From Mobula birostris (Eukaryota): a DNA stretch of 64,000 nucleotides. Under the pieces are notes generated by a model. That model had not been told where the DNA came from. It made no database searches and saw only the letters and a program-made list of their open reading frames with translations. The translations under genes were made by a program, and so were the position numbers. This document shows positions 10,779 through 55,605 of the stretch, one piece after another; within the stretch, counting starts at the first letter, position 1, and each line of letters starts with the position of its first letter. The stretch is from positions 19,385,792-19,449,791 of the forward strand of contig NC_092382.1 of the NCBI RefSeq assembly GCF_030028105.1. The letters run 5' to 3'.

Positions 10779-13700
10779 CTGAAACAGATGGGAGAATAAA
10801 GATGAAATCAACAGATTACACAACAGTGTCAGTAACAGGGGACAACACTCACAGACAAATATCACCAGAAAACCCGCGGATCCGCTGATATTTTATCACA
10901 TTGAACATTAACACAAACACTCACCCGATCAGCTCCAGACTCGGGAGGGTCAGTATGAGACGGCGGAGACCGGGGACAGATCGGTCTGTCAGCGAGTTTG
11001 ATCCCAGGTTCAGCTCCGTCAGTGATGGGTTTGCACTGAGAGCGGAGACGAGATCCTCGACACCAGAATCTGTGAGACCGACATCCCACAGCCTGGAGAT
11101 GAGAGAGAGTGAGGGTGAAGGACACAGAGAGACAGGAGACGGTACAAATCCCCAGTGTTTATCAGCAACACAATTACTGATCACATTTATGTTCAGTGTC
11201 AGACACCCAGTGACTGTAAGCACAATCTCCCACAGTCTGCTACTGACCCCAGTTTCTGTATTTTACACTCCGGGTTCCTCAGAGCCGCAAACACCAGTTT
11301 CATTCCTGAATCTCCCAGTTTATTATCACTCAGGTTCAGCTCCGTCAGTGATGGGTTTGTACTGAGAGCGGAGACGAGATCCTCGGCACCAGAATCTGTG
11401 AGACCGACACGGTCCAGCCTGGAGATGAGAGAGAGTGAGGGTGAAGGACACAGAGAGACAGGAGGTGGTACAAATCCCCAGTGTTTATCAGTAACACAAT
11501 TATGATCACAATAATGTTCAGTGTCAGACACCCAGTGACTGTAAACACAATCTCCCACAGTCTGGTACTTACACCAGTTTCTGTATTTTACACTCTGGGT
11601 TCCTCAGAGCCTCAGACACCAGTTTCATTCCTGAATCTCCCAGTTTATTATCACTCAGGTTCAGCTCCGTCAGTGATGGGTTTGTACTGAGAGCGGAGAC
11701 GAGATCCTCGGCACCAGAATCTGTGAGACCGACACCGAACAGCCTGGAGATGAGAGAGAGTGAGGGTGAAGGACACAGAGAGACAGGAGACGGTACAAAT
11801 CCCCAGTGTTTATCAGTAACACAATTACTGATCACATTAATGCTCAGTGTCGGACACCCAGTGACTGTAAACACAGTCTCCCACAGTCTGGTACTTACCA
11901 CAGTTTCTGTATTTTACACTCCGGGTTCCTCAGAGCCGCAGACACCAGTTTCACTCCTGAATCTCCAAGTTCATTCCGCCCGAGTCTAAACACAAACAGA
12001 CAGATTGAGGAACAAAGTGATTCAAGCCGAGGGTCTGAGGGAATTTCTCTTACTCGGATATTTCAGGAAACATTAAACCCTTCAGTAAATCACTGATCGG
12101 AGTTCCCATCACTGTCAATGTCCCTCACTGCCCAGCTCCAGGGTATTCACCGAATGTCAGTAATTTAGTCTGTCGGTGTGACCCTGTAAACTCCACATAT
12201 CCTGTCTCATTCCCCGATGGTTAGAAACGTGTTCCTGGAGTGACAGGGATGAGAGGGGCAGGGATGAAGGGGGAATGGGGATGGGGTAGAGAGATCCCAC
12301 AGGAGGAAGGGGGATGGCATTTGTCACAATTCTTCACAATCGTATTTATCACAGTTTTACCCAAATCCCTTTACATTGAAACAACACACCTGGACAGTTT
12401 CACAGTTCAGAGTGAGAGATAATTCAAGTTACCTCAACTCCTGGCACTTGTGCAGCCCGGGTCCCAGCCGCTGGATTGCTTCACACTGAATGTTGCAGTT
12501 CTCCAGGTCCAGGTGTTTTATTGTATCACAGTGTCCGATGCCATGAGACAGGACCGCGCAGTCAATCGGGGTCAGTGTCATTCCACGAAATGAAAGTGTT
12601 TCCACTGATCCCAGTGCGGCCCGAGCCAGTCCACGATTCTGAGACTCAAACAGGTAGTGCAATGTGTTCAGGAGGCTCCTTTTACCAGCTTCACTCCATG
12701 TGTTTCCACTCTGGCGTTTAACCTCCTCCTTCACCCAGTCAATCACCCGGCAGGTTGTTTGATGAGGAAATGGACCCAGAAACTCCTCCAGGCCCCGAGC
12801 TGTCATTGGGTTGGAGAGACCAGCAACAAAACGGAGAAATATCTCAAATCGACCGTCTGTCGTGCTGTGGGCTTCAGTGAGGAATCTCAGAATATCCCCG
12901 GGATGTGGATTCAGGAATTGTGCGACTGCAGCTGCAAACTCTTGGATGGTGAGGTGTGGGAATGTGTACACCACGCTCCGGGCAGAATCCTCTCTCTCCA
13001 AAAGCTCCATCAGGAACCCAGACAGGAACTGGGAAGGCTGCAGATTGTATTTGATCAAATCTCCATCTGTAAACACAATCTTCTTCTCAGCCACTCCTCT
13101 GAAGGCCATCTGACCAACCCTGAGTAACACATCACGGGGGTTCTCAATCTCACGGCCGTGGTTTTTCAGGATGTTGTAAATATAGTAGGAATACAGTTGG
13201 GTGATGGTCTTGGGAACTCGCTGTGGGTCCCTGACTCTTTGTATGAAGAAGGGGCCCAGTGCCAGAGCGAGGATCCAGCAGTAGGAGGGGTTGTAGCTCA
13301 TGGTGTACAGGATCTCGTTCTCCTCCACGTGTTTGAAAACAGCTGCTGCCACCGTCTGATCTTCAAAATGCCTGATGAAATATTCCTTCCGTTCCTCACC
13401 AACAAATCCCAGGATTTCAGCCCAGATACTGATCTTCGCCTTTTCCAGTAAATGTAACGCAGTGGGACGGGTTGTCACCAGCACTGAACACCCTGGGAGC
13501 AGCTTGCCCTGGATTAAACTGTACACAATGTCAGACACCTTGCACTTGAATTCAGGATCTGTGCATGTGGACCGAGGTTCTGTGTCTCTCTGACTGTCAG
13601 CAAAATCAATTTTGTCATTGAATTCATCCAAACCATCAAATATAAACAGCAATCCCTCTGGGTTCTTCCAGACCTCTCTCAGGGTATTCCCAAAGTAAGG

Positions 13701-16700
13701 ATACTGATCCAGAATCAGTTCCTTCAGGTTTATTCTGCAGTTAATGGAATTTAAATCCGGGATTTTGAAACTAAAGGCAAACTGGAATTGTTGGAATATT
13801 TTCCCCGTGGCCCAGTCATAAACAATCTTTTGTACCATTGTGGTTTTCCCGATCCCTGGCACTCCGGCCACTGCTGCTGAACGCCCAGATTTGGATTTAC
13901 TCCAGGAAAAGCTGCTCTGGAACAGCTGATCAGTGCGGATTTTTTCCAGCTCTCCGCGGAGATGTTCCTCTCTCCACTCCTCGTGGTCTCTGCCTCTTGC
14001 CAGCAGCTCATGTTCCACCAGTCTCCGATCTCGAACAGTAGAAATGACCGTGAGCTCAGCGTATCGATCAACCAGCTGGAAAACCTTCACCTTCTCCCTC
14101 ATCAGGATCGTGTTCACTCTCAGCGTTTCAGTTTGTGCCCGCAGAGTCTCCTTGTGTTTCTGTTGAACATCTTCCATGGGAACAGACCGTGATCAAACTG
14201 TTAGATGCCTCAACTCAGAGCTCAGTATTTAAGTGCACAAGAGTTAGCTCAACACTATTGCATTAATTGCATTAATCAATGGATGTTCGTACAGTGAAGT
14301 AAATCAGATTAACAGACCCCTGACTGGACAGAGAAGTCTGTTCTAGATAAACACCAGATCATCACATTTCCACATGCTGTGATGGTGAGTATTTCCCTGG
14401 TAGTTTACTGACCCCCAAGTGTCCCGTACTGGACAAACTCCCAGTACTGTCACAGCTGTGATTGTTCCTGTGGAAGAAACTTTTAATCTCCAGTGTTGAT
14501 GTGGTGTATGGAGATGGAGAAGAAGGTAGTGGGCATTCTGTCAAAGGAACAGGTCGAGGAATCACAGCTCCCCCTCCCCTCTCACCATCAGTGATTCAAA
14601 ATACAAAGAAGTAGCTTTGCTGATCAGCACGTGCACTGTGGGTCGGTGGTTGGGGTGTTCGAATCATGTCATGGGTGTTTGGACGCAGTCTGGACCTTGC
14701 CAGGAGTGTGTGGGATCCGACAGAGTATCAGGACCCTGTCAGAGGTGTGTGGGGTCTCACAGTGTGTCAGAGCACTATAAGGGACGTGTGGGGTCCCACT
14801 GTTTGTCAGGGCCCTTTCAGGAACGTGTAGGGTCTCACAGTGTGTCAGGACACTGTCAGGGACTTGTGGGGTCTCACAGTGTGTCAGGACAATGTCACGA
14901 GTGTGTGGGATCTCACAGTGTGTCAGGGCCCTGTCAGGGACGTCTGTGCTTTCACAGTGTTTCGGGAACATGCCAGGGGTGCTTTAGGATACTGACAGTG
15001 GTGAGTTGTGACTCACACTGTTGAAGGACCCTGTCAGGAGCGGGTGGGTTCTCACAGTGTGTCCGGACCTTGTCAGGGTGTGTGGGATCTCACAGTGTGT
15101 TAGGACTCTGTCAGGGGTGTGTGGAGTCTCACAGTGTGTCAGGACGCTGTCAGGTGTGTGCGGGGTGTCACAGTGTGTCAGGACGCTGTCAGGGGCGTCT
15201 GTGGTCTTGCAGTATTTCAGGACATTGTCAGGGGTGTTTTAGGACACTGACAGTGGTGTGTGGAGTCTCACACTGTGCCAGGACCCTGTTAGGGGTGTTT
15301 GGGGTCTCACAGTGTGTCAGGACCTTGTCAGGAGTGCGTGGTGTCTCTTAGTGTGTCAGAACGCTGTCAAGGGCGTGTGGGGTGTCACAGTGTGTCAGTA
15401 TCCTGTCAGGAGTGTGTGGTGTCTCACAGTGTGTCAGGTCCCTGTCAGACATGTGCAGGGTCTCACTGTGCATCACGAACCTGTCTGGGACGTGTAGGGT
15501 CTTACAGTGTGTCAGGACCCTGTCAGGAGTGTGTGGGATCTCACAGTGTGTCAGTGGTGTGTGTGGTCTCACAGTGTGTCAGGACCCTGTCAGGGGTGTG
15601 TGTGGTCTCACAGTGTGTCTGGGGCTTGTCAGGGGTGTGTGGGGTCTGACAGTGTGTCAGGACCCTCTCATGGATATGTGGGATGTCACAGTATGTCAGG
15701 ACCATGCTCGGAGTGTTTGGGGTCTCACATTGGGTAAGGACACTGCGAGGTGTATGTGCGGTCTCGCAGTGCGTCAGGAGCTTGTCAAGGATGTTTGTCG
15801 TCTCACAGTATGTCAGGAACCTGTCAGGGGAATGTGGTATCTCACAGTGTGTCAGGACCCTGTCAGGGCCGTGTGGTGTCTCACAGTGTGTCAGGACCCT
15901 GTCAGGGGTGTGTGGTGTCTCACAGTGTGTCAGGACCCTGTCAGGGGTGTGTGGTGTCTCACAGTGTGTCAGGAACCTCTCGGGCGTGTGGTGTCTCACA
16001 GTGTGTCAGGAACCTCTCAGGGGAATGTGGTGTCTCACAGTGTGTCAGGACCCTGTCAGGGCCGTGTGGGGTGTCACAGTGTGCCAGGGCACTCTCAGGA
16101 GTGTGTGGGGACTCACAGTGCGTCAGGTCCCTGTCAGGGGTGTCCGGGGCTTCACAGTGCGTCAGAACCCTGACAGGGACTTAGGGGTTTCACATGGTGT
16201 GAGGCTGCTGCCAGGGGTTTATGGGTTCTAACAGTGTGTCAGGATCCTGTCAGGGACGTGTGGGGTCTCACAGTGTGTCAGGAACCTCTCAGGGGCGTGT
16301 GGTGTCTCACAGTGTGTCAGGAACCTGACAGAGCCGTGTGGGGTGTCACAGTGTGCCAGGACACTCTCAGGAGTGTGTGGGGTCTCACAGTGCGTCAGGT
16401 CCCTGTCAGGGGTGTCCGGGGCTTCACAGTGCGTCAGAACCCTGACAGGGACTTAGGGGTTTCACATGGTGTGAGGCTGCTGCCAGGGGTGTATGGGTTC
16501 TAACAGTGTGTCAGGATCCTGTCAGGGACGTGTGGGGTCTCACAGTGTGTCAGGACCATGTCAAGGACGTGTGGGGTCTCACAGTCTGTCAGGAACTTGT
16601 CAGGGACGTGTGGGGTCTCAACAGTGTGTTATGTCCCTGTCAGGGGTGTGTGGGGTCTCACTCTGTGTCAGGACCATGTCACGGATGTGTGGGGTCTCGC

Positions 16701-22700: not shown

Positions 22701-25700
22701 TCGAATAATCAGTGAAACATGGGCTGATGCAATGTTAATAAGTTTTGTGATATTTGTCTTTCTTACGCTCTCTCCTCTGTCTAACTCAGTCTGCGATGAT
22801 GAAGCCTCACAATCTCTGAGCCCATGCACTGCCCCGGGCTCCATTCTCACTGACATGATGGGCTTATGGATGTAGTGAGCTTCCCATCCAGACCATCACA
22901 ATTTGACAAATTGTAATATTATTTACGGATAATTTCAGTCCTTTGCACTTTCCTTGTCACGATCCCACAACTCTCGGTTTCCCTGTCCTAATTCCCATCT
23001 CTCACTCTTCCACAGTATCCATCACACAACACTGGCAGACAGGAATTTCAGCTTCTGTGGACTGAGCTGAGGAATTTGTCCCCCAATCTCACCCTCTCTA
23101 ACACTGTAGCAGTGTTTGTACTGGGGAGTGCAGATGTGAACACAGCGGTGTTCATATGCTGCTCTGTGGTTGAACAGACCGGTTGGGATGTTACCTGCTT
23201 TTCTAATTAAAGTGATGCTATTATTACTGTTCTGTGACTGGAACTTCAGTGGACGCCCAACTCTAAGAAAAGATAATCTGCAGGAACTGGGGGAGTTTAG
23301 AAAATGGTTAAGGATGAGGCTGTTCAGGAGGGGACAGTGGCTGGCAAGAGAAGGTTTTGACTTTTTGGTGTGAAGAAATTCTTTTTTCCCATTCTCCGGA
23401 TCGCCCCCTTCTCCACACAGACTCTGGTGGAGATCTGTAGTTGCAGGTCCCCGAGCGGTGTGACAACTCTAGTCAAACTCGCCAGCTCTCTGCCTCTTTC
23501 CTCAAAATGTCCTTTGAAAACTCTCCCTCTAGCAAACACGTTTCCCTGTGTCTCACTGTGTTCTCTGTCACAGTGCCAACATTTACCTGGTCAGATCTTT
23601 GTGGCTCAACAATTTAACCGCCCGACGTAAAGTACCACCGTTGGTGGAAACAGAGGTCAGGTTTCAACATTATGAACTCTGCTTCGGCCACATCTGGGCC
23701 ATTGCGTACCGTTCCAATTGCCCCACTACCGGAGGGATGTTGAGGCTTTAGAGAGGGAGCACAAGAGATTCACCAGGATGCTGTCTGGTTCAGAGGGCAT
23801 GTGCTATCATGAGAGGCTGGAGAAAATTAGATTGTTTTCTCTGGACCATCGGAGGCCGAGGGAGCTCTGACACAGGTTGACAACATTATGAGAGGCTTAG
23901 ATAGAGTAGACAGAGAGAATAGTTTTCCTGGGGTTCAAATGTCTATTACTAGAGGGCCTGCAGTGAAGGTGAGAGGGGGTTGGATTATGGGAGATGTGAG
24001 AGATAGTTTTTTTTTAAATCAGAGAGCCGTGGATGCCTGGAATGCACTGCCTGGTACGGTGGTAGAGGCAAATTGTTAGGGACTTCTGAGAGACGTTTGG
24101 ATAGACACATGGATGTAAGGAAGATGGACGCATATGGACATGGTGTAGGAAGCAGAGATTAGAGCTTGGGTGTGTCTGATTTACTTCTTAGCTGTTTCGG
24201 CACAATATGATAGGCCTAATGGCTTATCTCAGTGTTTTCCTCTGCAATGTTCAATGCACGGTCACTTACCTTTCAGCTCACTGAGAAACTCTAGTAAAAG
24301 TTGAGCGGGAATTGGTCGATGGGAGGGATCACAACCTGATGAATTTAAACAAATTGAGGAAATCATTTTTGTAAATTTGTAAGGTGTGCTGTGTTGTGAT
24401 CCAAATTTAAATTAATTGCTGATATTATCTCACCATATATCTGTATTTCCTTCAGTATTTTGTCCAAATTTGGGACACAGTTCTGCATTTTCACAAAGGT
24501 TTCCCACATCACCCTCCGGGCGCGGGAGCCTTTCTCCATCACCAGGCTCAGGAGGAGTTTAGAACTGTCCGCCCGCTCTCCCTTATCAGCGAGATCAGAG
24601 ATTTTCTGTGAAGAGTAACGGTGAACATATTGGGGACTGACAGATTCACACAGAGAATGAGGAGTAAATGATGTGCTCTGTAACGGGATCACACTCTGCT
24701 CCACATGGTAGGCTTATTCAGAAAGTTAGAAGGCATGGGATCCAGGGAAGTTTGGCCAGGTGGATTCAGAATTGGCTTGCCTGCAGAAGGCAGAGGGTGG
24801 TGGTAGAGGGAGTACATTCAGGTTGGAGGGTTGTGACTAGTGGTGTCCCACAATGATCTGTTCTGGGACCTCTACTTTTCGTGATTTTTATTAACGACCT
24901 GGATGTGGGGGTAGAAGGGTGGGTTGACAAGTTTGCAGATGACACAAAGGTTGGTGGTGCTGTAGATATTGCAGAGGATTGTCAAAGATTGCAGAGAGAC
25001 ATTGATAGGATGCAGAAGTGGGCTGAGAAGTGGCAGATGGAGTTCAATCCGGAGAAGTGTGAGGCAGTACACTTTGGAAGGACGAACTCCAAGGCAGAGC
25101 ACAAGGTAAATGGCAGGATACTTGGTAGTGTGGAGGAGCAGAGGGATCTGGGGGTGCATGTCCACAGATTCCTGAAAGTTGCCTCACAGGTAGATAGGGT
25201 AGTTAAGAAAGCTTATGGGGTGTTAGCTTTCATAAGTCGAGGGATAGAGTTTAAGAGTCGCGATGTAATGATGCAGCTCTATAAAACTCTGGTTTGGCCA
25301 CACTTGGAGTACTGTGTCTAGTTCTGGTCACCTCACTATAGGAAGGATGTGGAAGCATTGGAAAGGGTACAGAGGAGATTTACCAGGATGCTGCCTAGTT
25401 TAGAGACTATAGATTATGATCAGAGATTAAGGGAGCTAGGGCTATACTCTTTGGAGAGGAGGAGGATGAGAGGAGACATGATAGAGGTGTACAAGATAAT
25501 AAGAGGAATAGATAGAGTGGACAGTCAGCGCCTCTTCCCCGGGCACCACTGCTCAATACAAGAGGACATGGCTTTAAGGTAAGGGGTGGGAAGTTCAAGG
25601 GGGATATTAGAGGAAGGTTTTTTTCTCAGAGAGTGGTTGGTGCGTGGAATGCACTGCCTGAGTCAGTGGTGGAGGCAGATACACTAGTGAAGTTTAAGAG

Positions 25701-27739
25701 ACTACTAGACAGGTATATGGAGGAATTTAAGGTGGGGAGTTATATGGGAGGCAGGTTTGAGAGTCGGCACAACATTGTGGGCGGACAGGCCTGCAATGTG
25801 CTGTACTATTCTATGTTCTATGTTCTATAACGGGATCACACTGAGCAGTCACCCTGTCTGGACATGGACTGTACATTCTGAGTGCAGAGCACACGGGGGG
25901 ACATTCACCGTGAACCTGGTCCACCAGTCAATGAGATTCTGGCTGGTCTGTGACCGCTTCATTGACCTGGCTCCAAATCCGTAAATAATTCCTCACCGGA
26001 TTTGACGATGGAAACAGAAATCAGAAAATAACAATCACAGATGAACAAGGAACTCAGGAGGGTTTTTGTATAACAGAGTGAACGGTCCCAGGGAAATTGC
26101 AGAAAAGATGCTGTGATTCATCTCCTCAGTCTGCCAGTGTCCAACATGACAGCGGATTACCGGCTGACACCTGATGCCTTTCCTTTGCCCTTTCCGATGG
26201 AGGTTTATTCAGTGATTACACATTACAACATGGCAGTATTCCCCGATCCACACTGTTTGCAGTTACAGATTGTAACACAATCATCTCCACCCAGAACAGA
26301 ACACACTCCAGCTCCTGCAGCACCCACAGATGATGCCCCGGTTCTCACTGACATCCTGCCGGCACGCTGCACGGTCTTCCCAAACCGAAACCTCCCGTCA
26401 TATTTCCATTTAATACTGGAAGCCCACACAACTGTTACCTGCTCAACTCACTCTGAACACTGAGCAGCTACCCACCAGTCCGCGGGGTCTTTTCACCTCT
26501 TTCTATCACTGGTTCAGATTTAAATCTTTGAGATTGTATGTACAATACTTATTTCCCAGTTTTTATTTTATCTATTTAATATCCGATGAGTCAGAGTTCC
26601 GACACCCATCAGTCCTGTGACGTGTGACAATTCAAACCCATTCTCCCTCCCACTCACCCGATGTTCCTCTCCACTGAACTGATTCTCGGCCGTTAACGCC
26701 AGGCTCATTCCGTGCACCCCTCCTTCCATCGCCTGCTCCAGCCTGTCCCAGTAGAAATCCGTCAACTGCAGCAGCTGGAAATCGTCCCAGCTTGCCAGGA
26801 GCTCGGAGATCTCTGAGCTCGGACCTGTGAATGAAAATGGGGAAAATTAAAAAATTACTGACCCCATATTGAGCAGCAACTTTCTCTCTGGAACCTAAAG
26901 ATCACCAAATACAGTCCGAAATATATATATGGGGGGGGGAGAGGAATGGGCACAGGCCAGGGGGTGGGAGGGGGGTATAGGAGGGGTTATAGTTCTATCT
27001 GTTGAAGGCTGCTCTTTTGTCTCCCCAGAAATATACCTCTCTGTTTGGAAAGGACTCTGCTTATTCCTGAGAGTATCATAACCCATCACCATCATTCTCC
27101 TGGTACTGCCCATCACCACCGCTTTGCTCTGGCTTACTGTCTGCCTGCCTGGTCAACCCCTTCCTCGGCAAGTCTCTGGGATATCTCACAAAATGCTGGA
27201 GGTACTCAAAAGGTCAAGCAGCCTCTATGGAGGAGAATGAACAATCAACGTTTCGGGCACGGCCCTTCATCGGACTGGAAATGAGGGGACAGAAATTCTA
27301 GATATTGCCACATTACTTTCTATTCTTTGTGGTCCTGATCCAAAACATCAAATGCTTATCCCCCTCCATGGATGCTGCCTGACCTGCTGAGTTCTGCCAA
27401 TATTTTGTGTTTCTTTGTGTTGCCCAAAACTTTCAGCATCTGCAGAATGTCTTCTGGAGTAACTCGCTACTTTAATCACAATCTGCGAGAGGAGCAGGAA
27501 CAGACAGTAAACGTACCCCTTTGCACGTGTGACTGTGCTTACCCCTGAGATGTTAATTCTCTCTCTGTCATCCCTCCGCTCAGTCCTTTCACAAATATTT
27601 GTGAATTGCTGATATTGAATTAAACACAGACACAAAGTCTAAGCAATATTTATAAATTAAAATACTTCACCAACGTACCTGTGTTCTTTCTCGATGTTGA
27701 CGTCACTGGAACTCCTCCCCTGCTCGCACCTTGAGCCAT
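10691..27739 (-). CDS. NLR family protein (CARD-like death fold, NACHT, LRR), NLRP3/NLRC3-like; 10 coding exons, 962 aa
   Basis: Exons 27739-27679, 26824-26658, 24605-24434, 24335-24270, 14170-12433, 11985-11899, 11743-11573, 11418-11248, 11092-10925, 10778-10691. All introns are GT-AG with consistent phases; the total is 2889 nt with no internal stop. Confidence 0.85.
10925..11092 (-). CDS. NLR LRR exon (168 nt)
   Basis: [55 protein letters not shown]; GTGAGT donor. Confidence 0.9.
11248..11418 (-). CDS. NLR LRR exon (171 nt)
   Basis: Near-identical duplicate of the previous exon; the donor is GTCAGT. Confidence 0.85.
11573..11743 (-). CDS. NLR LRR exon (171 nt)
   Basis: [56 protein letters not shown]; canonical 171-nt RI-type LRR exon. 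Confidence 0.9.
11899..11985 (-). CDS. NLR LRR exon (87 nt)
   Basis: [28 protein letters not shown]; TTTAG acceptor and GTAAGT donor. Confidence 0.9.
12433..14170 (-). CDS. NLR NACHT exon
   Basis: Walker A GVPGIGKT, Walker [12 protein letters not shown], sensor 1 VLVTTRP, winged-helix FPHLTIQEF, first LRR units; 1738 nt open. Confidence 0.95.
14680..22260. repeat. 39-bp minisatellite, roughly 160 units, interrupted by a CR1 at 20806-22076
   Basis: Consensus TCACAGTGTGTCAGGACCCTGTCAGGGGTGTGTGGGGTC; produces 13-aa periodic spurious ORFs. Confidence 0.95.
20806..22076 (-). mobile_element. Young 5'-truncated CR1 LINE (RT C-terminal half)
   Basis: [12 protein letters not shown]...SKFADDTKL...[11 protein letters not shown]...TRGHSL; (TTCTATGT)n-type tail at about 20806-20828. 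Confidence 0.92.
23630..24240 (+). mobile_element. Degenerate CR1 3' fragment
   Basis: [14 protein letters not shown]...[11 protein letters not shown]...[10 protein letters not shown]. Confidence 0.7.
24270..24335 (-). CDS. NLR coding exon 4 (linker)
   Basis: 66 nt, phase 1-1, [21 protein letters not shown]; CAG acceptor and AG|GTAAGT donor. Confidence 0.7.
24434..24605 (-). CDS. NLR coding exon 3 (death-fold C-terminal half)
   Basis: [57 protein letters not shown], a CARD-like helix pattern; CAG and GTGAGA sites. Confidence 0.8.
24696..25827 (+). mobile_element. 5'-truncated CR1 LINE with 15-bp target-site duplication
   Basis: RT motifs (FADDTK, PHLEYCV), TTCTATGTTCTATGTTCTA tail; TSD TAACGGGATCACACT at 24681-24695 and 25828-25842. 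Confidence 0.92.
26658..26824 (-). CDS. NLR coding exon 2 (death-fold N-terminal half)
   Basis: TTCACAG acceptor; [55 protein letters not shown]; GTGAGT donor. Confidence 0.8.
27185..27455. mobile_element. Degenerate inverted pair of Penelope-like terminal fragments
   Basis: CAAAATGCTGGAGGTACTCA...CGTTTCGGGC...CTTCATCGGACT, followed by a reverse-oriented GATGCTGCCTGACCTGCTGAGTTC. Confidence 0.55.
27679..27739 (-). CDS. NLR coding exon 1 ([20 protein letters not shown])
   Basis: AAAATGG start context; acceptor at 27773-27772 (exon begins 27771); GTACGT donor; phase 1 matches the next exon. Confidence 0.65.
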
Positions 27740-28440
27740 TTTGAGGACAGATGTGATCAGTTTTTGCTGCTCTATAACAAAACAAAATTAACAGGAGGGT
27801 CAAACATTAATTCAAGTGTAAAGGGGAACACTGTTTTGATTTTAAACTGAGGCAAACACTGCCAAACATCTTGGACCTGTCCACTGAAGCCTTGACACAG
27901 CCTGATCCACCTGCTCCCATCTATTTCCATGGATTGTACACTGCGCCGGGACTTTCCGGTGTATCTACACGCTATATTGCAGACAATTCCCTTTTAGGAA
28001 CCAGTCTTGTGCCCTGGACTGGGAGTGATGTGTCAATGGGAAGGCAAGGCAGGCTGAGCAGACAGCGCCCACTGCTTTGGTCCTCCTACCACTGTTGGCG
28101 CTGTGGAGAGTAATGGACAACTGTTCTAGCAGTGTGGGTTAAAACATTTCTGCTGACCAATGGGACACCCATTCCTCTCGTCACTGAATTATACAGATAT
28201 CTCAATCACACCTGATTCTCACTGTCTCATTTCAGTTTAACATCACCTGGTAATGACACCAATGGCAATATATGGTCTGAGTCTACATAGAAAAACTCTG
28301 ACATCCTGAACAATGCAATCTCACCCATAACATCGTGACATGCAAACACGGGGCAATGTGCAGATGCTGGAAATTCAAGCAACACACATCAAAGTTGCTG
28401 GTGAACGCAGCAGGCCAGGCAGCATCTCTAGGAAGAGGTA

Positions 28441-31835: not shown

Positions 31836-31839
31836 CTCT

Positions 31840-42149: not shown

Positions 42150-44250
42150 AGCAGGTTACATTACCAGAGCGTTGTGCAGGAATTAGAGACAGTTAAGTAG
42201 AATCAGTTGTTTTTGGGCAAGTCAATACCGGATATGTGGAGTGTGTTTGAAGTCTAACTACACAGAGCACAGGACAGGTATGTTCCAGTCAGGAGGAAGG
42301 ACAAGGATAGCAAGGTAAGAGAACCGTGGATGTCGAGGGAGATCATGAATGTAGTGCAGAATAAACAGGAACAGTAGATAAAGCTGAGGAAGCTAGCATC
42401 AAACAGGGACTTGCAGGATTATAAAGAAGCCAGAAAAGAACTTAGGAGGGGAGTTAAGAAAGCCAGGAGAGGCCACGAAAAGTCTTTGGTTAGTGGGATT
42501 AAAGAGAATCCCAAGGAATTGTGTACATACATCAGGAGAAGAGGATAACAAGGAGGAAGTGGGACCACACAAGGCTAAAGTGACTGGTGGGGAGGCGTGG
42601 GGGGAACACTTGCTTGGGTGCGAAGGATGTGGCTGAGGTCCATAATGAGTTCGCTTAATCAATATTTACCAAAGAGAAGGACGTGGAGGATATGGAGATC
42701 ATTGGCAAGAGTATTAAAATGCTGAGACGTTGGGAAGTATAGGAGGAGGCAGTGCTGGGTAACTTAAATAGCAATAAGTTGGATAACTCCCTCGTACCTG
42801 ATAGAATATACCCCCAGGTAATTGATAGGAAAGTGAAGAGACTGCTAGGGCCTTGAGCAATATCATTGTATCCTCCATAGCCACAGGCGAGGTCCTGGAG
42901 GACTGGTGAGAAGCTCATGTTGCTCCTTTGTTCAAGAAGGAAATCAGGTATAATCCTGGACACTATAGACCGGTAAGTCGCACGTCGTCAGCAGGGAAGG
43001 TAACGAAGAGTATTTGTCTAATTAGGGAGAGCCAGCATGGCCTTCTGTGGGGAAAATTGTGTCTTACAACATTGATTGATTTTATTGATAAGGTGATGAC
43101 GATGATTGATGAAGGTAGAGCTATGATTGTTATTTCAACACATCTCAGAAAGGCATTTCGCAAGGTCACACATGGGAGGCTCACCCGGAAGGTAAGGTAC
43201 ATGGGATCAGTGGTGAATTGGATTTAGAACTGGCTTGCCCATTGAAGACAGCGGGTGGTGGTCGAAGGGAACTATTCCAGCTGTTCCGCAGATTCAGATA
43301 TATTTAACCGATCTGGCTGAAAATGTACACCGGTGTGGATAGCACAGATGACTGGCGTACAATACAGCGGGACGTACTGTAGATTAACTGCAATATGGGC
43401 AGAGAAATGGCAGATGGAGTTGTTCCAGGCAAACGTGAAGTGTCGCACCTTGGTAGGTCAAATAAAAAGAGACTGTAGACTGTTAAATGCAAGACACTTA
43501 ACAGGGGCTGATAAGCAGAAAGATGTTGTGATTCAGATCAAAGCTCCCTGAAATTGGCTATGCAGGTTCATTAGGTGATTACGAACGCATATGGAATGCC
43601 TGATCTTATTATTCGAGGTATTGAGTTCAAAAGTCAGGGAGTTATGTTGCAACTGATAAATCTCTAGTCAGGCCACATCTGGAGTATCGCAAACTGTTCT
43701 GGTTATCTGACTCTAGGAAGGATGTTGAGGCTTTGGAGAGAATGCAGAAGAGGTTTACAAGGATATTGCCCAGATTGTAGGGCATGTGGTTGTACAAACT
43801 TGCGTGGTTTTCTCTGGAGCGGGAGAGTGTGAGGTGAAATTTGATAGAGGGTTATAAGACCATGAGAGGCATAAATAGAGTAGGTAGACAGGATCTTTGT
43901 TGAGTGGCTGAAATATATAATACCATAGAATATGTAGTTAATGTGAGAGGGAGTGAGTCCAGAGAAGAAAGGCAACGTCTGTGTAAAAGACAAGTACGTT
44001 TACACAATCTGGGGGCACCGAGAATGAACGCTTTTGTGATGGTAGAAGCAGATACAATAAGAATTTTTAAGAGACTCTTAGATCAGCACATGAATGTGAG
44101 GAAAATAGAAGAATATGGATATATTGAATGCATAATGGATTACTATAGATGGCCATTTGATTACTACTTTACCTGCCTTCCAGAGAGTTGTGTACATTGT
44201 TGCCCGAAGGGTCTGTCCCTGTGCTATACTATTCTATCTTCTGTGTCTAT
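42150..44250 (+). mobile_element. Highly degenerate CR1 LINE
   Basis: [47 protein letters not shown]. Confidence 0.75.
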
Positions 44251-44319
44251 GTTATATAATATTGTTACAGCTACAATGCTTCAATGCGATTTTCAGTTCA
44301 CTGTGCTGTTTTAACATAC

Positions 44320-44524
44320 CGAGCTCCAGAACCGTCAGCACTTTGTCCAAATTTGCCAGCCCATTCCTCATTTCCACAAAGGATTCCAACATCACTCCCT
44401 GGGGACGGAGGGATCCCGACAGAAGGAGGGAGAGCGGGGATGAAGGTGGTGTGAGAGGGGGCGGACAGGATGTTTGTCCCGGCGGGGACAGGAGGGGCTC
44501 ATCTGTGGAAATGTCTGAGTCCAT
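44320..44524 (-). CDS. Candidate first coding exon: Pro/Ser-rich leader fused to a paralogous C-terminal part of the NLR death-fold exon
   Basis: GCCACCACCATGG Kozak; MDSDISTDEPLLSPPGQTSCPPPLTPPSSPLSLLLSGSLRPQGVMLESFVEMRNGLANLDKVLTVLEL; gapless nucleotide similarity of 44337-44408 to 24455-24526; phase-1 G|GTATGT donor. Confidence 0.5.
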
Positions 44525-45149
44525 GGTGGTGGCGAGCAGAGGGATTTACCACACTGGGGGCAAATACTGGCAAACTACTGACCTGCAAGTGGGGCCAAAA
44601 ATCCGGGCAAAGTGGATTGGAGTGGTTTTGGAGAACACGGGTAGATCGGCCCCACATTTTATTGAATGACAGGACGGACTGGAGTGGCCGAGTGGCCTGG
44701 TCCTGTTCCTGCTGTCTGTGTGTTTAAGAAGAAGGTATAACCAGACAGTTCTTGGGCCTGCAGGATGTCCCAGTGTGTGTGTTGTAACTTAAGGACCGGT
44801 GCTTGGAGACCAGTTGTTCCCAAACTGTGTCAACAATTTGGCTGAGGGACAAAATTCGGCATTTCCAAGTCTGTTGTTGACACAAAATGCATATTTATAT
44901 ATTAATCATGACATAAAATGTGTATTTGTACTCAGCTAATGAAATAAAAATTCATATTTGTGGATTGTTAATGACATAAAGCCTATATTTCTATATTATT
45001 AATGACAGAAAATTGTATAATTGATGTTCTGTGTGTTATCTGCATGTAGTTTCCTGTGCTGCTGCTGCAAGTCAGTGTTTCTCTGTCCCTGTACCTTCCC
45101 GTACTTGTGCACTTGGCAATAAATTCAACATGACATGAGACAACTCAGA

Positions 45150-45900
45150 GAAATTTGATTAATAATGATCATGTTGGCAACTCAGCAGGTCGAAATTAAA
45201 GGGACAGTACACTGTTAAATGAAAGATCCTGGATAATGTCGATGATCAGAAGCATCTTGGAGTCTAAGTTCATCGCTCCCTGAAAGTGGCCACACAGATT
45301 GATAGAGTGGCTAAGAAGGCAAATGGTATGCTTACCTTTATTAGTCAAAGCATTGAGTTCCAAAGTCAGGAAGTTATGTTGCAGCTTTATCAAGCAGTAT
45401 TCGGCCTCAGCTGGAGTATTTCATACACTTCTGGTCACCCCATTCTAGGAAGGATGTAGGGGCTTAGAAGAGGTTGCAGAAGAGTTTTGCCAGGATATTC
45501 TCCGGATTAGAGGACTTGAGCTATAACGAGAGTTTGGACAAACCCATTTTTTTTTCCCTCTGGAGCCCTGCAGGCTGTTGCTATACTCGCAGAAGGAATG
45601 TAGGAGTAGGATACTTATAGATAGAGGAGACAGACAGTATCTTTTTCCCAGGTTTGAGATGTCTTAAACAAGAGACCATGCATTTGAGGTGAAAACGGGT
45701 GATTTTAAAAGCGATGTGAGGGAGAAGCTCTTCCACACAGAGAACTGTGAGCAGCTGGAATGTGCTGTTTGGGTAATGGTAGATGCAGATACATTAGAGG
45801 CCTTGAAGAACCAGTTACACAGGCAGATTGAAGTGAAGGAAATGGAAGAATATAGACACTGTGTAGGCAAAAAAGATTAGTTTAGTTGGATGTTTATTAG
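45150..45900 (+). mobile_element. Degenerate CR1 3' fragment
   Basis: Remnants of KKANGML.FISQSIEFQSQEVML and .PHSRKDV. Confidence 0.65.
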
Positions 45901-45914
45901 TATTTTTTTTCCGA

Positions 45915-46545
45915 AAGCAACAGACACAGCGTGTTGGAGAAACTGAGCAGGTCAGGCGGCATCTCTGGGCAATAGCCAACCGTTGACGATTCAGGCTGAG
46001 GCCATTCTTCAGGACTGAAATGGAAGGAGAGAAGTCAGAATAAATAATGGTGGGGGAGTGGAGGAAGTAGTACAAGGTCGCAGGCGATTGGTGAAGCAAA
46101 GATCTAGAAAGTTGATTGGTGAAAGAGATAAAGGGCTGGGGAAGGGGTAATCTGATATGAGAGGGGTAGAAACCATGGATAGAAATGAAGGGGGAGGAGC
46201 ACCAGAGGGAGGTTATGGGCAGGTAAACAGATAATGGGGAATGGTGAGGGAGGGGGTGGGCAGTTACCGGAAATTCGAAAAATCGAAGTTCATGGCGACA
46301 GCTTGAAGACTGCCCAAACGGAATACAGTATGAGGTGTTGTTCCTTCAACCTGAGTCCGCCCCCATCGCGGCAGCAGAGGAGGTCATGGACTGACATGTC
46401 GGAATGGGAATGGGAAGTGGAATTAAAATGGGTGGCCACAGGGAGATCCCTCTTTTTTTGACGAAGCAGTCTCCAGTCTACGTCGGGTTTCACTGATACA
46501 CAGGAGGCCACACCAGGAGCAACGGATACAGTAGATGACCCCAAC
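45915..46545 (-). mobile_element. Penelope-like fragment (GIY-YIG C-terminus and terminal repeat)
   Basis: DLPVATHFNSTSHSHSDMSVHDLLCC...LRLKEQHLI; decayed hammerhead at about 45985-46017. An inverted partner lies at 46560-46680 and 47280-47535. Confidence 0.75.
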
Positions 46546-46679
46546 GGGAGAAATACCGATTTCTCCTTCCGATGATCAAAATTTTAACCTCTCCCCTTTC
46601 CCTATTCTACACTCTGACCTTTTACTTCTTCTCACCTCCTACTAATACCCTCTGCACTCCTCCCCCCGTCACATTCTCC

Positions 46680-46768
46680 TGTTACCAGAGTACTGTGAGT
46701 GTTACTTTAAGAGCGCCTGAGTAAGGCGGGACTATGACGTCAGTCACAGGCTGCAGCAGCCGGCTGCG

Positions 46769-46819
<51 letters not shown>

Positions 46820-47275
46820 CAGAGACAGACACTGACTGACTGTTGGAACTTCAGCTTGTCACTGCTATGGTTTGGAACTCTCTGATGCCCAAAAGATTGG
46901 ATTGATTATCGGCACGCAGTGCACAATTGATGTGTGACTGTCTCTTCGTATAATCCATTTGTGTGGATTTCCTGGAGTAACCTGTGGTATCACTTTTGTT
47001 GGCTCTTTACCTGGAATCAGGGTGTTAAGTGAAGACGATACTCTTGTGACTGTCACCTGGTGATTTCTCTAAGTAGATTTCGGAACGATTCAACGGACAA
47101 GATCTTCAACGATTGTTATTTCACTTACCAGCGTGGAACCTGTGATTCTTCGTATCGCCTTCTCTCTGCGTACCTCTATGTGGATTACAAATCTCTCTCC
47201 CATCATCTGTTTTACTTTGCCATCTGAATCTTAAGACTTTAAGAATTGTTCCTAAACTTGATTGTTTGTAAGCCC
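46680..47275 (+). mobile_element. Possible solo or truncated LTR with internal (GA)n
   Basis: Starts TGTTAC, interrupts a Penelope terminal repeat, contains a GC box, TGACGTCA and a GA/GACA microsatellite at 46772-46830; no clear CA end. Confidence 0.35.
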
Positions 47276-48739: not shown

Positions 48740-48899
48740 CAAAACCCCCGCCCCGGCTCTGAAGACGCGGAGCTCACATTGCGCATGCTCAGTTTCGGAT
48801 GTTGGGTGGCTGCCTTTCCGTTCTGTGTTGAAGCGGAACGTCGCGGGGAGACGGGGGAAGGATTGTTGTCTGCGAGGTTAATACATCAAGTTCCCATCG
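48740..48899 (+). promoter_or_regulatory. Paralogous promoter and non-coding first exon, inverted relative to the NLR promoter
   Basis: 48810-48905 aligns to the reverse complement of 33160-33255; GC box CCCCGCCCC, NRF1-like TGCGCATGCTC, CCCATCG|GTGAGG donor at 48900. Confidence 0.6.
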
Positions 48900-49650
48900 G
48901 TGAGGATTTGATGCCGTTCCGAGCGGGCATGTTCGAATCCCGTTAACTCACCCGAACTGGGGATCGGTCTGGGTTCCCGGAGAGAACCTGCCGGGGTCGA
49001 TCCGGGCTGTGTGGCCTTCACACCGAACCGTCTGAGATGAGCCGTCGCTCAGTCCCTGCTGCTTTAGCCCGAAGAAAGGGTAAGGTGCTGATGCCGGGAC
49101 TGCACTCATCCGTTGAGTTGTACCTCCATCACCCCGCGCGGTATCAGATCCAAACTTCGCCTGGTACGATGCCTGGGGTCAATAACTGTTTTAGATAATT
49201 CAGGGCACGGGAAGCGGCCATTCGGCCTGTTGTGTTCTTGCAGCCGGAGGTTAAACGGAGTAATCGCATTTGCGGGACACTGCTCCGTGTCTATGAGTAG
49301 TTTTATCTTTCGTCAGTTCAGACAGGGCAGTGAGATCGAATTTGTGACGTTCCCTCTTTTTGTGTGGGCAATTTTTTTCTTGACTCCATTCCACAGTTAC
49401 GACCCGCCGAAGCGCAGCGAACATTTCCGAGTATATAACCGTTTTCATGCGATAATTAGGCCTTTTCCATTTGTCTCTTCCTCAAAAATTTGTACACTTC
49501 GGTGAAATCGCCCTCCCGAAGTTCCAGAGCTGAAGCTTAGTCTGTGTAATATTTCCACACAATTAAATGGGGAATGGTTTATTATTGTCATATACCGCCG
49601 TACAGTGAAAATCTTGTCTTGCATACCACCCACACTGATCAATACAAGAG

Positions 49651-49976
49651 CACCAGGCGTGATTGATAAGTTCGTGGCCTAAGATAGGCGGAGACAATTT
49701 TAGAAAACTTAGCACTTTAATTTTTCAACATAGCCCCCTCCTATTTTACACACTTAGACTGTTGGTCGTGGAGCATACGGATCTTGGACCTCCAGAAAGT
49801 GCCGACAGCATGTTTGATTGATAAGTTCGTGGCCTAGGGTAGACGGGGATGAGTTATACAGCTCTCGTTACAGGCATGTGCAGGTCAACTCTTTGAGTGA
49901 TTATGCAGAAAGTTTGAAGTTAATAATTCATTTCCTTCTACCTTAGACCACACGAACTTATCAGTCACCCCTAGTA
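49651..49976. mobile_element. Tc1/mariner-type MITE
   Basis: Terminal inverted repeats GTGATTGATAAGTTCGTGGCCTAAG ... CTTAGACCACACGAACTTATCAGTCAC, ending in TA; an extra internal TIR copy at about 49814. Confidence 0.7.
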
Positions 49977-49979
49977 TAT

Positions 49980-50400
49980 TAGGTAAAACATTAACAGAGT
50001 TTAACAAAGCTTTATGGGTACAGAGAAAGTGTACTGCAGGTAAACATATGATGCAGATTCACATGGAGTTACATCGTACCGTGCTGAGAAATATTCAGTT
50101 GACTCATTACAATGGAATGGAAGCCGTCCTTCAGCCTGGTGGTGTGCTTTCTGTTTCCTTTCAATCTTCAATCCGATGGGTAGTTGAAATTGAGAATGTC
50201 CAGGGTTCTGGGAATCTTCGATTATGTTTCCTGATTCACTGAGGCAGTGGGAAGTATATAGAGAGTCCATGGAAAGGAGGCTAGTTTCTGTGGCGCGCTC
50301 AGCTGTGACCACAGTTATCTGCTCCTTCCTGCAGTCAAACGCAGAGCAGTAGCCGTAGGAAGTTGTGAAGTATCCGGATGGGATACTTTCTGTGGTGCGT
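49980..50400 (-). mobile_element. Rex1/Babar 3' fragment
   Basis: LLSMDSLYTSHCLSESGNIIEDSQNPGHSQFQL. Confidence 0.6.
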
Positions 50401-50731
50401 TCAGGGGCAAAGGGTGCATGCGAACGTTCTTGTTGTTTGCTATAGCTTTGACATTTTAGGATTATATATATATAGTATGTACTATTAATTCAGTATCTGT
50501 GTAAAGCTGGAGGACCATCAGTGATTGTCATTGATCCCTTCTCCCAGCTAGTTCTATTTGACCATTCCGTGCCATTTTATTCAAAATCTGTCCAGCCTGT
50601 ATCTCACCACGTCACTGATATATGTCAACCATCTTTCTTCTAAGCCTTGTCTCATTCTGAAGTATTGTACTGCATTTTTACCTCACTGAGCTTACAAGGA
50701 GCTGTGTTTTGTTCGGTTAATTGATGTTTAA

Positions 50732-53112
50732 CATAGAAACATAGAAAATAGGTGCAGGAGTAGGCCATTCGGCCCTTCGAGCCTGCACCACCATTTATTA
50801 TGATCATGGCTGATCATCCAACTCAGAACCCTGCCCCAGCCTTCCCTCCATACCCCCTGACCCCCGTAGCCACAAGAGCCATATCTAACTCCCTCTTAAA
50901 TATAGCCAATGAACTGGCCTCAACTGTTTCCTGTGGCAGAGAATTCCACAGATTCACCACTCTCTGTGTGAAGAAGTTTTTCCTAATCTCGGTCCTAAAA
51001 GGCTTCCCCTCTATCCTCAAACTGTGGCCCCTCGTTCTGGACTTCCCCAACGTCGGGAACAATCTTCCTGCATCTAGCCTGTCCAATCCCTTTAGGATCT
51101 TATACGTTTCAATCAGATCCCCCCTCAATCTTCTAAATTCCAACGAGTACAAGCCCAGTTCATCCAGTCTTTCTTCATATGAAATTCCTGCCATCCCAGG
51201 AATCAATCTGGTGAACCTTCTTTGCACTCCCTCTACGGCAAGGATGTCTTTCCTCAGATTAGGGGACCAAAACTGCACACAATACTCCAGGTGTGGTCTC
51301 ACCGAGGCCTTGTACAACTGCAGTAGTATCTCCCTGCTCCTGTACTCGAATCCTCTCGCTATAAATGCCAGCATACCATTCGCCTTTTTCACCGCCTGCT
51401 GTACCTGCATGCCCACTTTCAATGACTGGTGTATAATGACACCCAGGTCTCCTTGCACCTCCCTTTTTCCTAATTGGCCACCATTCAGATAATAATCTGT
51501 TTTCCTATTTTTGCCACCAAAGTGGATAACTTCACATTTATCCACATTAAATTGCATCTGCCATGAACTCACCCAACCTATCCAAGTCACCCTGCATCCT
51601 CTTAGCATCCTCCTCACAGCTAACACTGCCACCCAGCTTCATGTCATTCGCAAACTTGGAGATGCTGCATTTAATTCCCTCATCCAAGTCATTAATATAT
51701 ATTGTAAACAACTGGGGTCCCAGCACTGAGCCTTGCGGTACCCCACTAGTCACCGCCTGCCATTCTGAAAAGGTCCCATTTATTCCCACTCTTTGCTTCC
51801 TGTCTGCTAACCAATTCTCCACCCACACCAATACCTTACCCCGAATACTGTGTGCTTTAAGTTTGCACACTAATCTCCTGTGTGGGACCTTGTCAAAAGC
51901 CTTCTGAAAATCCAAATATACCACATCCACTGGTTCTCCCCTATCCACTCTACTAGTTACATCCTCAAAAAATTCTATGAGATTCGTCAGACATGATTTT
52001 CCCTTCACAAATCCATGCTGACTTTGTCCGATCATTTCACCGCTTTCCAAATGTGCTGTTATCACATCCTTGATAACTGACTCCAGCAGTTTCCCCACCA
52101 CCGACGTTAGGCTAACCGGTCTATAATTCCCCGGTTTCTCTCTCCCTCCTTTTTCAAAAAGTGGAGTTACATTAGCCACCCTCCAATCCTCAGGAACTAG
52201 TCCAGAATCTAATGAGTTTTGAAAAATTATCACTAATGCATCCACTATTTCTTGGGCTACTTCCTTAAGCACTCTAGGATGCAGACCATCTGGCCCTGGG
52301 GATTTATTTGCCTTCAATCCCTTCAATTTACCTAACACCACATCCCGACTAACACGTATTTCGCTCAGTTCCTCCATCTCACTGGACCCTCTGTCCCCTA
52401 CTATTTCTGGAAGATTATTTATGTCCTCCTTAGTGAAGACAGAACCAAAGTAATTACTCAATTGGTCTGCCATGTCCTTGCTCCCCATAATCAATTCACC
52501 TGTTTCTGTCTGCAGGGGACCTACATTTGTCTTTACCAGTCTTTTCCTTTTTACATATCTATAAAAGCTTTTACAGTCCGTTTTTATGTTCCCTGCCAGT
52601 TTTCTCTCATAATCTTTTTTCCCTTTCCTAATTAAGCCCTTTGTCCTCCTCTGCTGAACTCTAAATTTCTCCCAGTCCTCAGGTGAGCCACTTTCTCTGG
52701 CTAATTTGTATGCTTCTTCTTTGGAATTGATACTAACCCTAATTTCTCTTGTCAGCCACGGGTGCACTACCTTCCTTGATTTATTCTTTTGCCAAACTGG
52801 GATGAACAATTGTTGTAGTTCATCCATGCAACCTTTAAATGCTTGCCATTGCATATCCACTGTCAATCCTTTAAGTGTCATTTGCCAGTCTATCTTAGCT
52901 AATTCATGTCTCATACCTTCAAAGTTACCCCTCTTTAAGTTCAGAACCTTTGTTTCTGAATTAACTATGTCACTCTCCATCTTAATGAAGAATTCCACCA
53001 TATTATGGTCACTCTTACCCAAGGGGCCTCTCACGACAAGATTGCTAATTAACCCTTCCTCATTGCTCAAAACCCAGTCCAGAATAGCCTGCTCTCTAGT
53101 TGGTTCCTCGAC
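50732..53112 (-). mobile_element. Young 5'-truncated CR1 LINE, same subfamily as 20806-22076
   Basis: Long ORF2 segment [16 protein letters not shown]...[10 protein letters not shown]...[12 protein letters not shown]...SKFANDMK; an 8-nt deletion near 51566 shifts the frame; probable TSD ATGTTTAA at 50724-50731 and 53113-53120. Confidence 0.93.
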
Positions 53113-53129
53113 ATGTTTAATTGAACACA

Positions 53130-53445
53130 GCACGAGGCAGGGTAAACACAACCATTAAGTCAATAAATTCTAGTTTCACTGTTACAAAATGGCTGCAGTG
53201 CTAACTTTTGTCACAATTGAAACTCAGAGCATATTATATTGAGTTTGTTGTTTCCTTTCTCGATTATTTTTGGCGAGCCACTTCCTCCGTTTCCAGGGTA
53301 ACAGCCCTGCGGAGCTGCAAGAAGTGCTGCACATTTTTATCACTCTGTGGTCACCGCTTCTTAGCGTAGAGACAGTGCCCTCAGGAGCAACTGCAACAGA
53401 ATGATAGTGGGAGGAAACGATGCTGTGAGCATTGACTGTATGGGA
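53130..53445 (+). promoter_or_regulatory. Conserved module, copy 3
   Basis: CACTTCCTCC-GTTTCCAGGGTAAC at 53279-53302, identical to the reverse complement of copy 1; CAAAATGGCTG at 53185. Confidence 0.45.
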
Positions 53446-54869: not shown

Positions 54870-55605
54870 TTTTGACCCGGCTCGATGTCAGAGAACACAG
54901 GATGATAACTGATGATGGATTTAGTGAATGAAGGCTTGTGACGACGATGAAGCGTGTGTCGGTATTGAGATACATTACTCATGACATTGACTTGTTTATG
55001 AATGTACATGGCACGGTTAGCAAGTCTGCTACTAAGTTAGGGAGTCTTGTTGATATTGCAACATGTTATAATGCATTTCAAAGAGATGTTAGTCAGTTAT
55101 GGAGATAGACTGAGAAATTGCAAATGGTTTTCAACTTGGACAAGTAAAAGATGGTGCATTTTGGACAATGAAACCATCGTGGTCCTGTTATGCTGAATGG
55201 AGGGTCACCGAGTGACGTGGAACAGAGCGAGCTGGGATTACAAGGGTAAAGTTCTCTGAAAGCGGATGTGCAAGTATAGAGGGTGGAAAAGAAGGCTTTA
55301 ATCATGCTGGCCTTCATCAGTCAGGCATTGAGTTTTGGATTACAGACATTATATTGCAGTTATATAAATAGCTAGTGAGGATACACCAAGCAATCTGTAC
55401 AGTTGTGTTCACCCTATTGTAGGACAGATATTATCAATCTGGAGAGGGTGCAGAAGAGATTATTGAGGATGCTACCTGGACTAGAGGGCCTAGTTATAGG
55501 GAGAGGCTGGCCGAGCTGGATCTTCATTCCACGGAGCACAGGAGAATTTGGGTGACATTGTATGTTTATAAAATCAAGAGGGAGAATGAAGTCGATAACC
55601 ATCTC
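54870..55605 (+). mobile_element. Old CR1 fragment shared with 29400-29770
   Basis: Aligns to the reverse complement of 29430-29770 and extends further 3'. Confidence 0.65.

What the first reader, a model, noticed from the sequence alone, without database searches (positions are those of the whole stretch)
44320..44524. Kozak-initiated 'half-CARD' exon upstream of the NLR: a possible alternative N-terminus
Seen: a minus-strand ATG in a textbook Kozak context (GCCACCACCATGG) opens 68 codons. The second half (GVMLESFVEMRNGLANLDKVLTVLEL) aligns without gaps, as protein and DNA, to the end of NLR exon 3 ([27 protein letters not shown]). It ends at a donor in the homologous position and the same phase 1. 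The N-terminal part of the death fold is replaced by a Pro/Ser-rich leader. No NACHT exon of its own lies between it and the NLR. Inference: it could splice in frame to the NLR's phase-1 acceptors (26824, 24335 or 14170). Joining at 24335 or 14170 would give a NACHT-LRR isoform without an intact effector domain (decoy or dominant-negative); joining at 26824 would extend the N-terminus. It may instead be the relic of a deleted paralogue.
Basis: partly seen in the sequence, partly recalled or inferred. Interest (0 to 1): 0.7.

Follow-up and report, generated by a model that had tools for sequence, protein, structure and literature searches.

The report
Deletion scar mimicking an NLR exon
This apparent extra first exon of a ray immune-sensor gene is the scar of a 2.3-kb deletion that joined the edge of a repeated regulatory element to a stray piece of another sensor gene; its start codon likely arose by a common point mutation, and it is probably not used.

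Summary
The sequence is as described (ATG 44524, 68 codons, phase-1 donor after 44320), except for a one-codon gap against exon 3. It is not a designed exon but a chimera. Codons 1-40 come from an element with about 800 exact-motif copies that reads GTG here (798 GTG, 15 ATG; the ATG arose separately in 6 unfused copies). The rest is the 3' half of an orphan NLR exon-3 paralogue. In undeleted relatives the two parts lie 2.35 kb apart on one strand and share the 8-bp microhomology at the junction; the deleted part holds the CpG island and CCAAT boxes. The junction occurs 9 times, all in one young duplicated block, and varies as much as its flanks. The NLR has its own likely promoter at 33.2 kb, and none of 120 annotated ray NLRs carries this peptide. 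Expression could not be tested. Against this reading: frame, ATG and donor are intact in 9 of 9 copies, and 19 of 28 undeleted parent exons are still open.

The parts
44320..44524 (-). Chimeric 205-nt open frame (the finding): ATG to phase-1 donor
   Evidence: identical or nearly so in 9 of 9 copies
44522..44524 (-). ATG at a position that is GTG in the parent element (CpG-to-CpA change inferred)
   Evidence: 798 exact GTG copies vs 15 ATG copies; alignment
44396..44403 (-). Deletion junction, 8-bp microhomology CCCAGGGA; about 2.35 kb missing relative to undeleted loci
   Evidence: upstream homology ends at 44396, downstream homology starts at 44403
44396..46679 (-). Part A: left edge of the multi-copy CpG-island element and its flank; supplies the Kozak context and Pro/Ser leader
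   Evidence: 86% identical and collinear with G000:C17 near 47.006 Mb; element profile
42797..44403 (-). Part B: 3' half of an orphan NLR exon-3 paralogue (44403-44320) with its donor and following intron
   Evidence: 85% to L040-L057; 72% over 1.67 kb to L042
25853..49400 (.). Young duplicated block, at least 23.5 kb, present 9 times on contig C17; carries the junction, the NLR promoter and NLR exons 1-2
   Evidence: 95-100% identity
33167..33255 (-). Likely own promoter and non-coding first exon of the NLR (donor GTGAGT at 33166); inferred
   Evidence: CpG o/e 0.84, GC 59% at 32900-33500; precedes NLR exons in 8 of 8 other copies
27679..27771 (-). NLR ATG-bearing exon (ATG 27739); its acceptor at 27771 is in frame for a phase-1 donor
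   Evidence: P0003/P0005 start here; joint to exon 2 in contigs
26658..26824 (-). NLR exon 2, first half of the CARD-like domain
24434..24605 (-). NLR exon 3, second half of the CARD-like domain
24270..24335 (-). NLR exon 4, linker
12432..14170 (-). NACHT-WH-HD2 exon (open frame to 12432)
   Evidence: PF05729, PF17779, PF17776

Best explanation
The stretch is a deletion junction that joins the edge of an 800-copy CpG-island element to the 3' half of an orphan NLR exon 3, and it is likely a non-functional look-alike of a first exon. Shown: the two parents, their order and strand in undeleted loci, the shared 8-bp microhomology, the loss of about 2.35 kb, GTG at the ATG position in the parent family, and nine copies in one duplicated block. 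Inferred: repair by microhomology-mediated end joining or template switching; ATG made by deamination of a methylated CpG; the element being the promoter of the neighbouring C2H2 zinc-finger genes, so that the deletion removed the promoter core; the in-frame link between the halves being a one-in-three accident; no productive splicing into the NLR.
For: Homologues at 80-84% cover only the leader and stop at 44396-44438 (31 of 40 scored hits); homologues at 83-86% cover the exon half and intron. Undeleted A-then-B layout with 2358 and 2334 bp between the microhomologies; 6 L010-type loci have B at that spacing, and 4 sister loci carry a different deletion of the same unit. 798 GTG vs 15 ATG exact copies; the 6 unfused ATG copies sit in another clade and stop after 31 codons. 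4 of 15 CpGs in the chimera's A part are decayed, 0 in four intact-looking copies. The frame is open 31-73 codons in 13 of 13 unfused copies, so openness is inherited. CpG peak at +105 to +505 and CCAAT/ATTGG at +325 to +383 in 11 of 13 copies lie beyond the junction at +121 to +128; CpG o/e is 0.37 upstream of the ATG, 0.96-1.0 in the deleted part. Among the 9 copies, 3 of 205 exon sites vary vs 50 of 3345 flank sites (p=1.0), and all 3 change the amino acid. Trp-to-Leu at a column that is Trp in 112 of 114 pattern matches. 0 of 120 annotated ray NLRs hold leader or B-type motifs. Contigs of three runs bridge exons 1-2, 2-3 and 3-4 of the NLR family in the ordinary way (88% likeness, so paralogues count).
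Against: ATG, frame and a good donor are intact in 9 of 9 copies, and a same-strand NLR 5' end follows in all, though these are copies of one event. The only indel against the parent exon is in frame. 19 of 28 undeleted B copies keep the frame and both splice sites (18 are one near-identical clade), and pooled pN/pS does not separate B types (0.62) from working exon 3 (0.58), so B is not shown to be dead. Chimera vs B pN/pS ranges 0.4-1.6 on 5-8 changes: uninformative. The unfused element is present in RNA-containing contigs at depth 300-500, strand unknown; if forward transcription began upstream of the leader, the chimera could keep a start site. A CpG island at 48.7-49.3 kb (o/e 0.95) could fire divergently towards it. 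The zinc-finger link rests on regions I picked for regular spacing (7 of 8 copies) and fails for 2 of 2 copies near 83.6 Mb.
Confidence: 0.8

Rival explanations
1. A newborn exon: the accident is real, but low-level transcription (for example divergent from the 48.8-kb island) now splices it to the nearest in-frame acceptor at 27771, which would give a full-length NLR with 79 extra N-terminal residues.
For: Strong Kozak context and donor; the join at 27771 is open to the end of the NACHT exon; 16 of 120 annotated paralogues read in frame through the segment ahead of that ATG; 5'-truncated human duplicates often gain new start sites (PMC6169893, section 7).
Against: No CpG island left upstream; 16.5 kb with 22 pyrimidine-rich YAG sites and the NLR's own promoter in between; no constraint among copies; absent from 120 annotated proteins.
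Confidence: 0.12
2. A decoy or dominant-negative isoform that skips to 24335 or 14170.
For: Both joins are in frame.
Against: Needs skipping of two or three exons that contigs show joined normally; only 26 residues of the domain remain and the conserved Trp is lost; effector-less forms are already annotated from an ATG at the NACHT exon itself in 15 of 120 proteins, without this exon (gene models, not validated).
Confidence: 0.03
3. The undeleted A-B unit is a live transcript (promoter plus captured exon 3) and the chimera is a still-transcribed, non-coding derivative with a regulatory effect on the neighbouring NLR promoters.
For: 19 of 28 B copies keep frame and splice sites; the A core is 95-99% conserved over about 250 bp; the junction lies between two head-to-head NLR promoters.
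Against: The closest collinear parent clade has a stop and a lost donor in 6 of 6 copies; the island core is deleted in the chimera; sister loci lose other parts of the unit.
Confidence: 0.05

Closest known systems
Rearranged gene fragments and fusion junctions in segmental duplications (human 5'-truncated duplicates such as ROCK1P1, GTF2IP1; PMC6169893, abstract and section 7 read)
   Same: Partial duplicate placed next to foreign upstream sequence; a new start codon may appear; near-identical copies.
   Different: Those cases have full-length cDNA support; here no transcript is shown and the likely promoter core was deleted, not gained.
Birth-and-death NLR arrays: zebrafish chromosome 4 NLR-B30.2 genes interspersed with multi-zinc-finger genes (10.1101/027151, 12 passages read); expanded NLRP-related clade in whale shark (PMC8455134, 12 passages read)
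   Same: NLRs mixed with zinc-finger genes on one chromosome; duplication, domain loss and exon shuffling; N-terminal modules on separate exons.
   Different: This is a ray NLRP3-like family with a two-exon CARD-like domain and no B30.2 among the Pfam hits; the passages read describe no junction like this one.
CARD-only proteins (CARD16/17/18) and short NLR splice forms such as NOD2-S (recalled, not from a call)
   Same: Idea of a truncated death-fold product acting as inhibitor.
   Different: Those keep a whole CARD; here 26 residues of the second half remain and the conserved Trp is replaced.

Membership tests
Microhomology-mediated deletion junction | Both parent segments exist undeleted, in the same order and on the same strand | tested here: met
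Microhomology-mediated deletion junction | Short homology shared by both ends, kept once at the junction | tested here: met
   CCCAGGGA in parent A (L010) and parent B (L044); one extra C just upstream in the window
Alternative first coding exon of the NLR | Donor in phase with downstream acceptors | tested here: met
   27771, 26824, 24335, 14170
Alternative first coding exon of the NLR | Start codon conserved among homologous sequences | tested here: not met
   798 GTG vs 15 ATG
Alternative first coding exon of the NLR | Promoter or start site upstream | tested here: inconclusive
   CpG o/e 0.37 and 0.26 upstream; island core deleted; no direct start-site data
Alternative first coding exon of the NLR | Spliced junction reads into the NLR | tested here: inconclusive
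   only contigs available, tables truncated
Alternative first coding exon of the NLR | Purifying selection on the peptide | tested here: inconclusive
   3 of 3 variants nonsynonymous, density equal to flanks; too few changes
Alternative first coding exon of the NLR | Present in annotated isoforms | tested here: not met
   0 of the 120 listed proteins (of 1153 hits); two searches found nothing, which is weak evidence
CARD-only decoy | Complete death-fold domain | tested here: not met
   26 residues matching the end of exon 3 only
CARD domain (the NLR's exons 2+3) | Profile or structural match to CARD | tested here: inconclusive
   no Pfam hit; Atlas features 0.88-0.89, a lead; no fold was made
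Orphan NLR exon relic (part B) | No same-strand partner exons nearby | tested here: met
   3 of 3 loci of 100-120 kb
Orphan NLR exon relic (part B) | Disabling mutations or neutral evolution | tested here: inconclusive
   9 of 28 broken, 19 of 28 open; pN/pS 0.62 vs 0.58

The most novel reading that the evidence does not exclude
A first exon caught at birth: one deletion plus one CpG mutation built a Kozak-initiated, splice-ready exon from a zinc-finger promoter edge and a stray CARD-like exon, and it now feeds an N-terminally extended isoform into a nine-copy NLR subfamily.
Probability: 0.12. Interest if true: 0.55.

Novelty: new member of a known kind. Interest (0 to 1): 0.15.

Why it matters
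As a scar it matters little. It is a clean example of how a textbook Kozak ATG, an open frame and an in-phase donor can meet by accident in a fast-turning gene cluster, and of why nine near-identical copies are not evidence of selection. If junction reads were found, it would be a fully traceable case of a new immune-receptor exon built from promoter DNA, with both parents still in the genome.

Tried and rejected
Expression: no RNA holder listed. The three added runs are contigs; they bridge NLR introns, so they contain RNA, which reverses my first guess that they were DNA skims. On 43000-47000 no joint or loose end at 44320 is shown, and depth is 0.64/0/0 in bin 44206-44339 and 3.79/0/0 in bin 44608-44741. 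36 joints and 549 loose ends were hidden and the acceptors were outside the stretch, so I count this as no evidence. My first reading, that most chimeras lack a downstream NLR, was wrong: one search shows NLR exons 1-3 after all 8 other copies, and a NACHT within 40 kb in 3 of 8. My first reading of element A as a purely antisense first intron was revised. In one search the splice-site tallies and the working-exon vs B comparisons were one codon off; they were discarded and redone. pN/pS did not discriminate. Protein searches with the chimera and with a full B exon found nothing at E 0.01; weak. No tRNA or Rfam match in the window or in a full A copy. Pfam does not recognise the 75-aa frame. 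Paper searches returned nothing on this ray cluster or junction; the library is partial and no supplements were read. No structure was predicted, so the CARD label stays a lead.

Full report
Observation. The minus strand has GCCACCACC-ATG-G at 44524, 68 codons plus one base, and a GTATGT donor after 44320. The match to NLR exon 3 is real: 72 bp, 76%, ungapped, E 3e-7. It is one codon shorter than exon 3. The NLR below it has exons at 27771-27679, 26824-26658, 24605-24434, 24335-24270 and a NACHT exon from 14170. Annotated proteins P0003 and P0005, named by the source as NLRP3-like isoforms of the ray Mobula birostris, have exactly this N-terminus and are 99-100% identical over the NACHT exon. 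Contigs of three runs bridge the first three introns with GT-AG ends (88% likeness, so paralogues contribute).

Two parents. A genome search with 44250-44800 gave 9 copies at 99-100% and, among 40 scored of 1283 candidates, 31 hits at 80-84% that cover only the leader and stop at 44396-44438. A search with 44255-44402 gave the same 9 copies and a second family at 83-86%, whose members are whole exon-3 paralogues with their own acceptor. At G000:C17 near 47.006 Mb the sequence is collinear with window 56000-44396 at 80-86%, continues for 2358 bp, and then reaches such an exon (B) on the same strand; near 83.64 Mb the spacing is 2334 bp. The leader element (A) ends in CCCAGGGA in the first locus, B has CCCAGGGA in the second, and the window has it once, at 44403-44396. 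This is a deletion junction. Four sister loci have lost a different part of the same A-B unit.

The start codon. The exact 21-mer occurs 798 times with GTG and 15 times with ATG. Nine of the 15 are the chimeras. The other six are unfused, fall in another clade and stop after 31 codons. CCGTGG to CCATGG is the change expected from deamination of a methylated CpG (established knowledge). The chimera's A part has 4 of 15 CpGs decayed, like its sister clade (4-5 of 13-14), against 0 in four intact-looking copies. The Pro/Ser frame is open for 31-73 codons in 13 of 13 unfused copies, so it is a by-product of C-rich sequence.

What A is. In 13 copies the CpG peak lies at +105 to +505 from the GTG, CCAAT/ATTGG at +325 to +383 in 11 of 13, and identity is 95-99% from -45 to +205. 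In 200 kb that I chose for regularly spaced copies, 7 of 8 are followed 5-13 kb later by a same-strand C2H2 zinc-finger frame; this fails for 2 of 2 copies near 83.6 Mb. I infer that A is the promoter region of the zinc-finger genes, possibly bidirectional. The junction is at +121 to +128, so the island core is gone: CpG o/e is 0.96-1.0 in the deleted part and 0.37 upstream of the ATG. The NLR has its own likely promoter and non-coding first exon at about 33255-33167, and a homologous one at 48.8 kb faces a second, plus-strand NLR beyond the window.

What B is. 28 undeleted copies match an exact pattern. 9 are broken (6 stop plus lost donor, 2 stop, 1 frameshift) and 19 keep frame and both splice sites, 18 of them one clade. 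No same-strand exon 2 or NACHT lies within 3 of 3 loci of 100-120 kb; the neighbours are zinc-finger and GPR139-like genes. pN/pS among four B types (0.62) is no higher than among four working exon 3s (0.58), so neutrality of B is not shown. The donor and its phase are inherited from B.

Copies and constraint. All nine chimeras lie in one block of at least 23.5 kb (25853-49400) at 95-100% identity, together with the NLR promoter and first exons. They are one event copied, not nine. The exon has 3 variable sites in 205 against 50 in 3345 outside (p=1.0), and all three change a residue. Against B the chimera has Trp-to-Leu at a column that is Trp in 112 of 114 pattern matches in the stored NLRs, two more replacements and a one-codon deletion. 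None of the 120 listed annotated NLRs holds leader or B-type motifs. These numbers are small and cannot prove neutrality.

If it were spliced. Joins at 27771, 26824, 24335 and 14170 are all open. The default product would be a longer full-length NLR. A decoy needs two or three exons skipped. Expression could not be tested with the runs on hand.

Comparison. Human 5'-truncated duplicates can gain new start sites and start codons (PMC6169893, abstract and section 7), which is why I leave 12% for a newborn exon. CARD-only decoys (recalled) keep a whole domain; this does not.

Verdict. Most likely an ordinary rearrangement scar in a birth-and-death gene cluster (0.8). Interest 0.15.

Noticed in passing
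Element A, e.g. L184:6000-6600; remnant at window 44396-44926: A core of about 250 bp is 95-99% conserved, its 21-mer occurs 798 times, mostly on C17, it is seen in RNA-containing contigs at depth 300-500 (strand unknown) and has no Rfam match. It precedes same-strand zinc-finger frames; long-type copies have a GPR139-like fragment about 0.8 kb away on the other side. Possibly a shared bidirectional promoter.
   Followed up: partly
L137-L163 (e.g. G000:C17 near 83.64 Mb): Undeleted A-B units place an open, splice-site-intact orphan exon 3 about 2.2 kb downstream of the CpG island in 19 of 28 copies; it could be a captured exon in a promoter-driven transcript.
   Followed up: partly
window 29426-33253 vs 48814-55226; L077-L078: Old inverted duplication carrying homologous CpG-island first exons (33.2 kb minus, 48.8 kb plus) of two head-to-head NLR genes; the second gene's exons 2, 3, NACHT and LRRs lie 6-20 kb past the window end.
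   Followed up: partly
window 14170-14177: An ATG sits inside the NACHT exon's acceptor region; 15 of 120 annotated relatives, including P0002 and P0004, start at or just before it and lack the N-terminal domain. Gene models only.
   Followed up: no
window 46680-47272: About 0.6 kb with a TGACGTCA motif and a GA run has no counterpart in the collinear L010-type loci; looks like an insertion specific to the nine-copy block.
   Followed up: no
window 14690-20800 and 20809-22080: A long minisatellite fills the intron before the NACHT exon and is interrupted by a LINE-like piece 97% identical to 50730-51995.
   Followed up: no
G000:C17 near 31.72-31.73 Mb (L093-L096): This copy of the block has the exon 1-3 module twice in tandem; several annotated relatives also have doubled N-terminal modules.
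   Followed up: no
window 466-1457 and 4658-4981, minus strand: GPR139-like receptor pieces in more than one frame.
   Followed up: no
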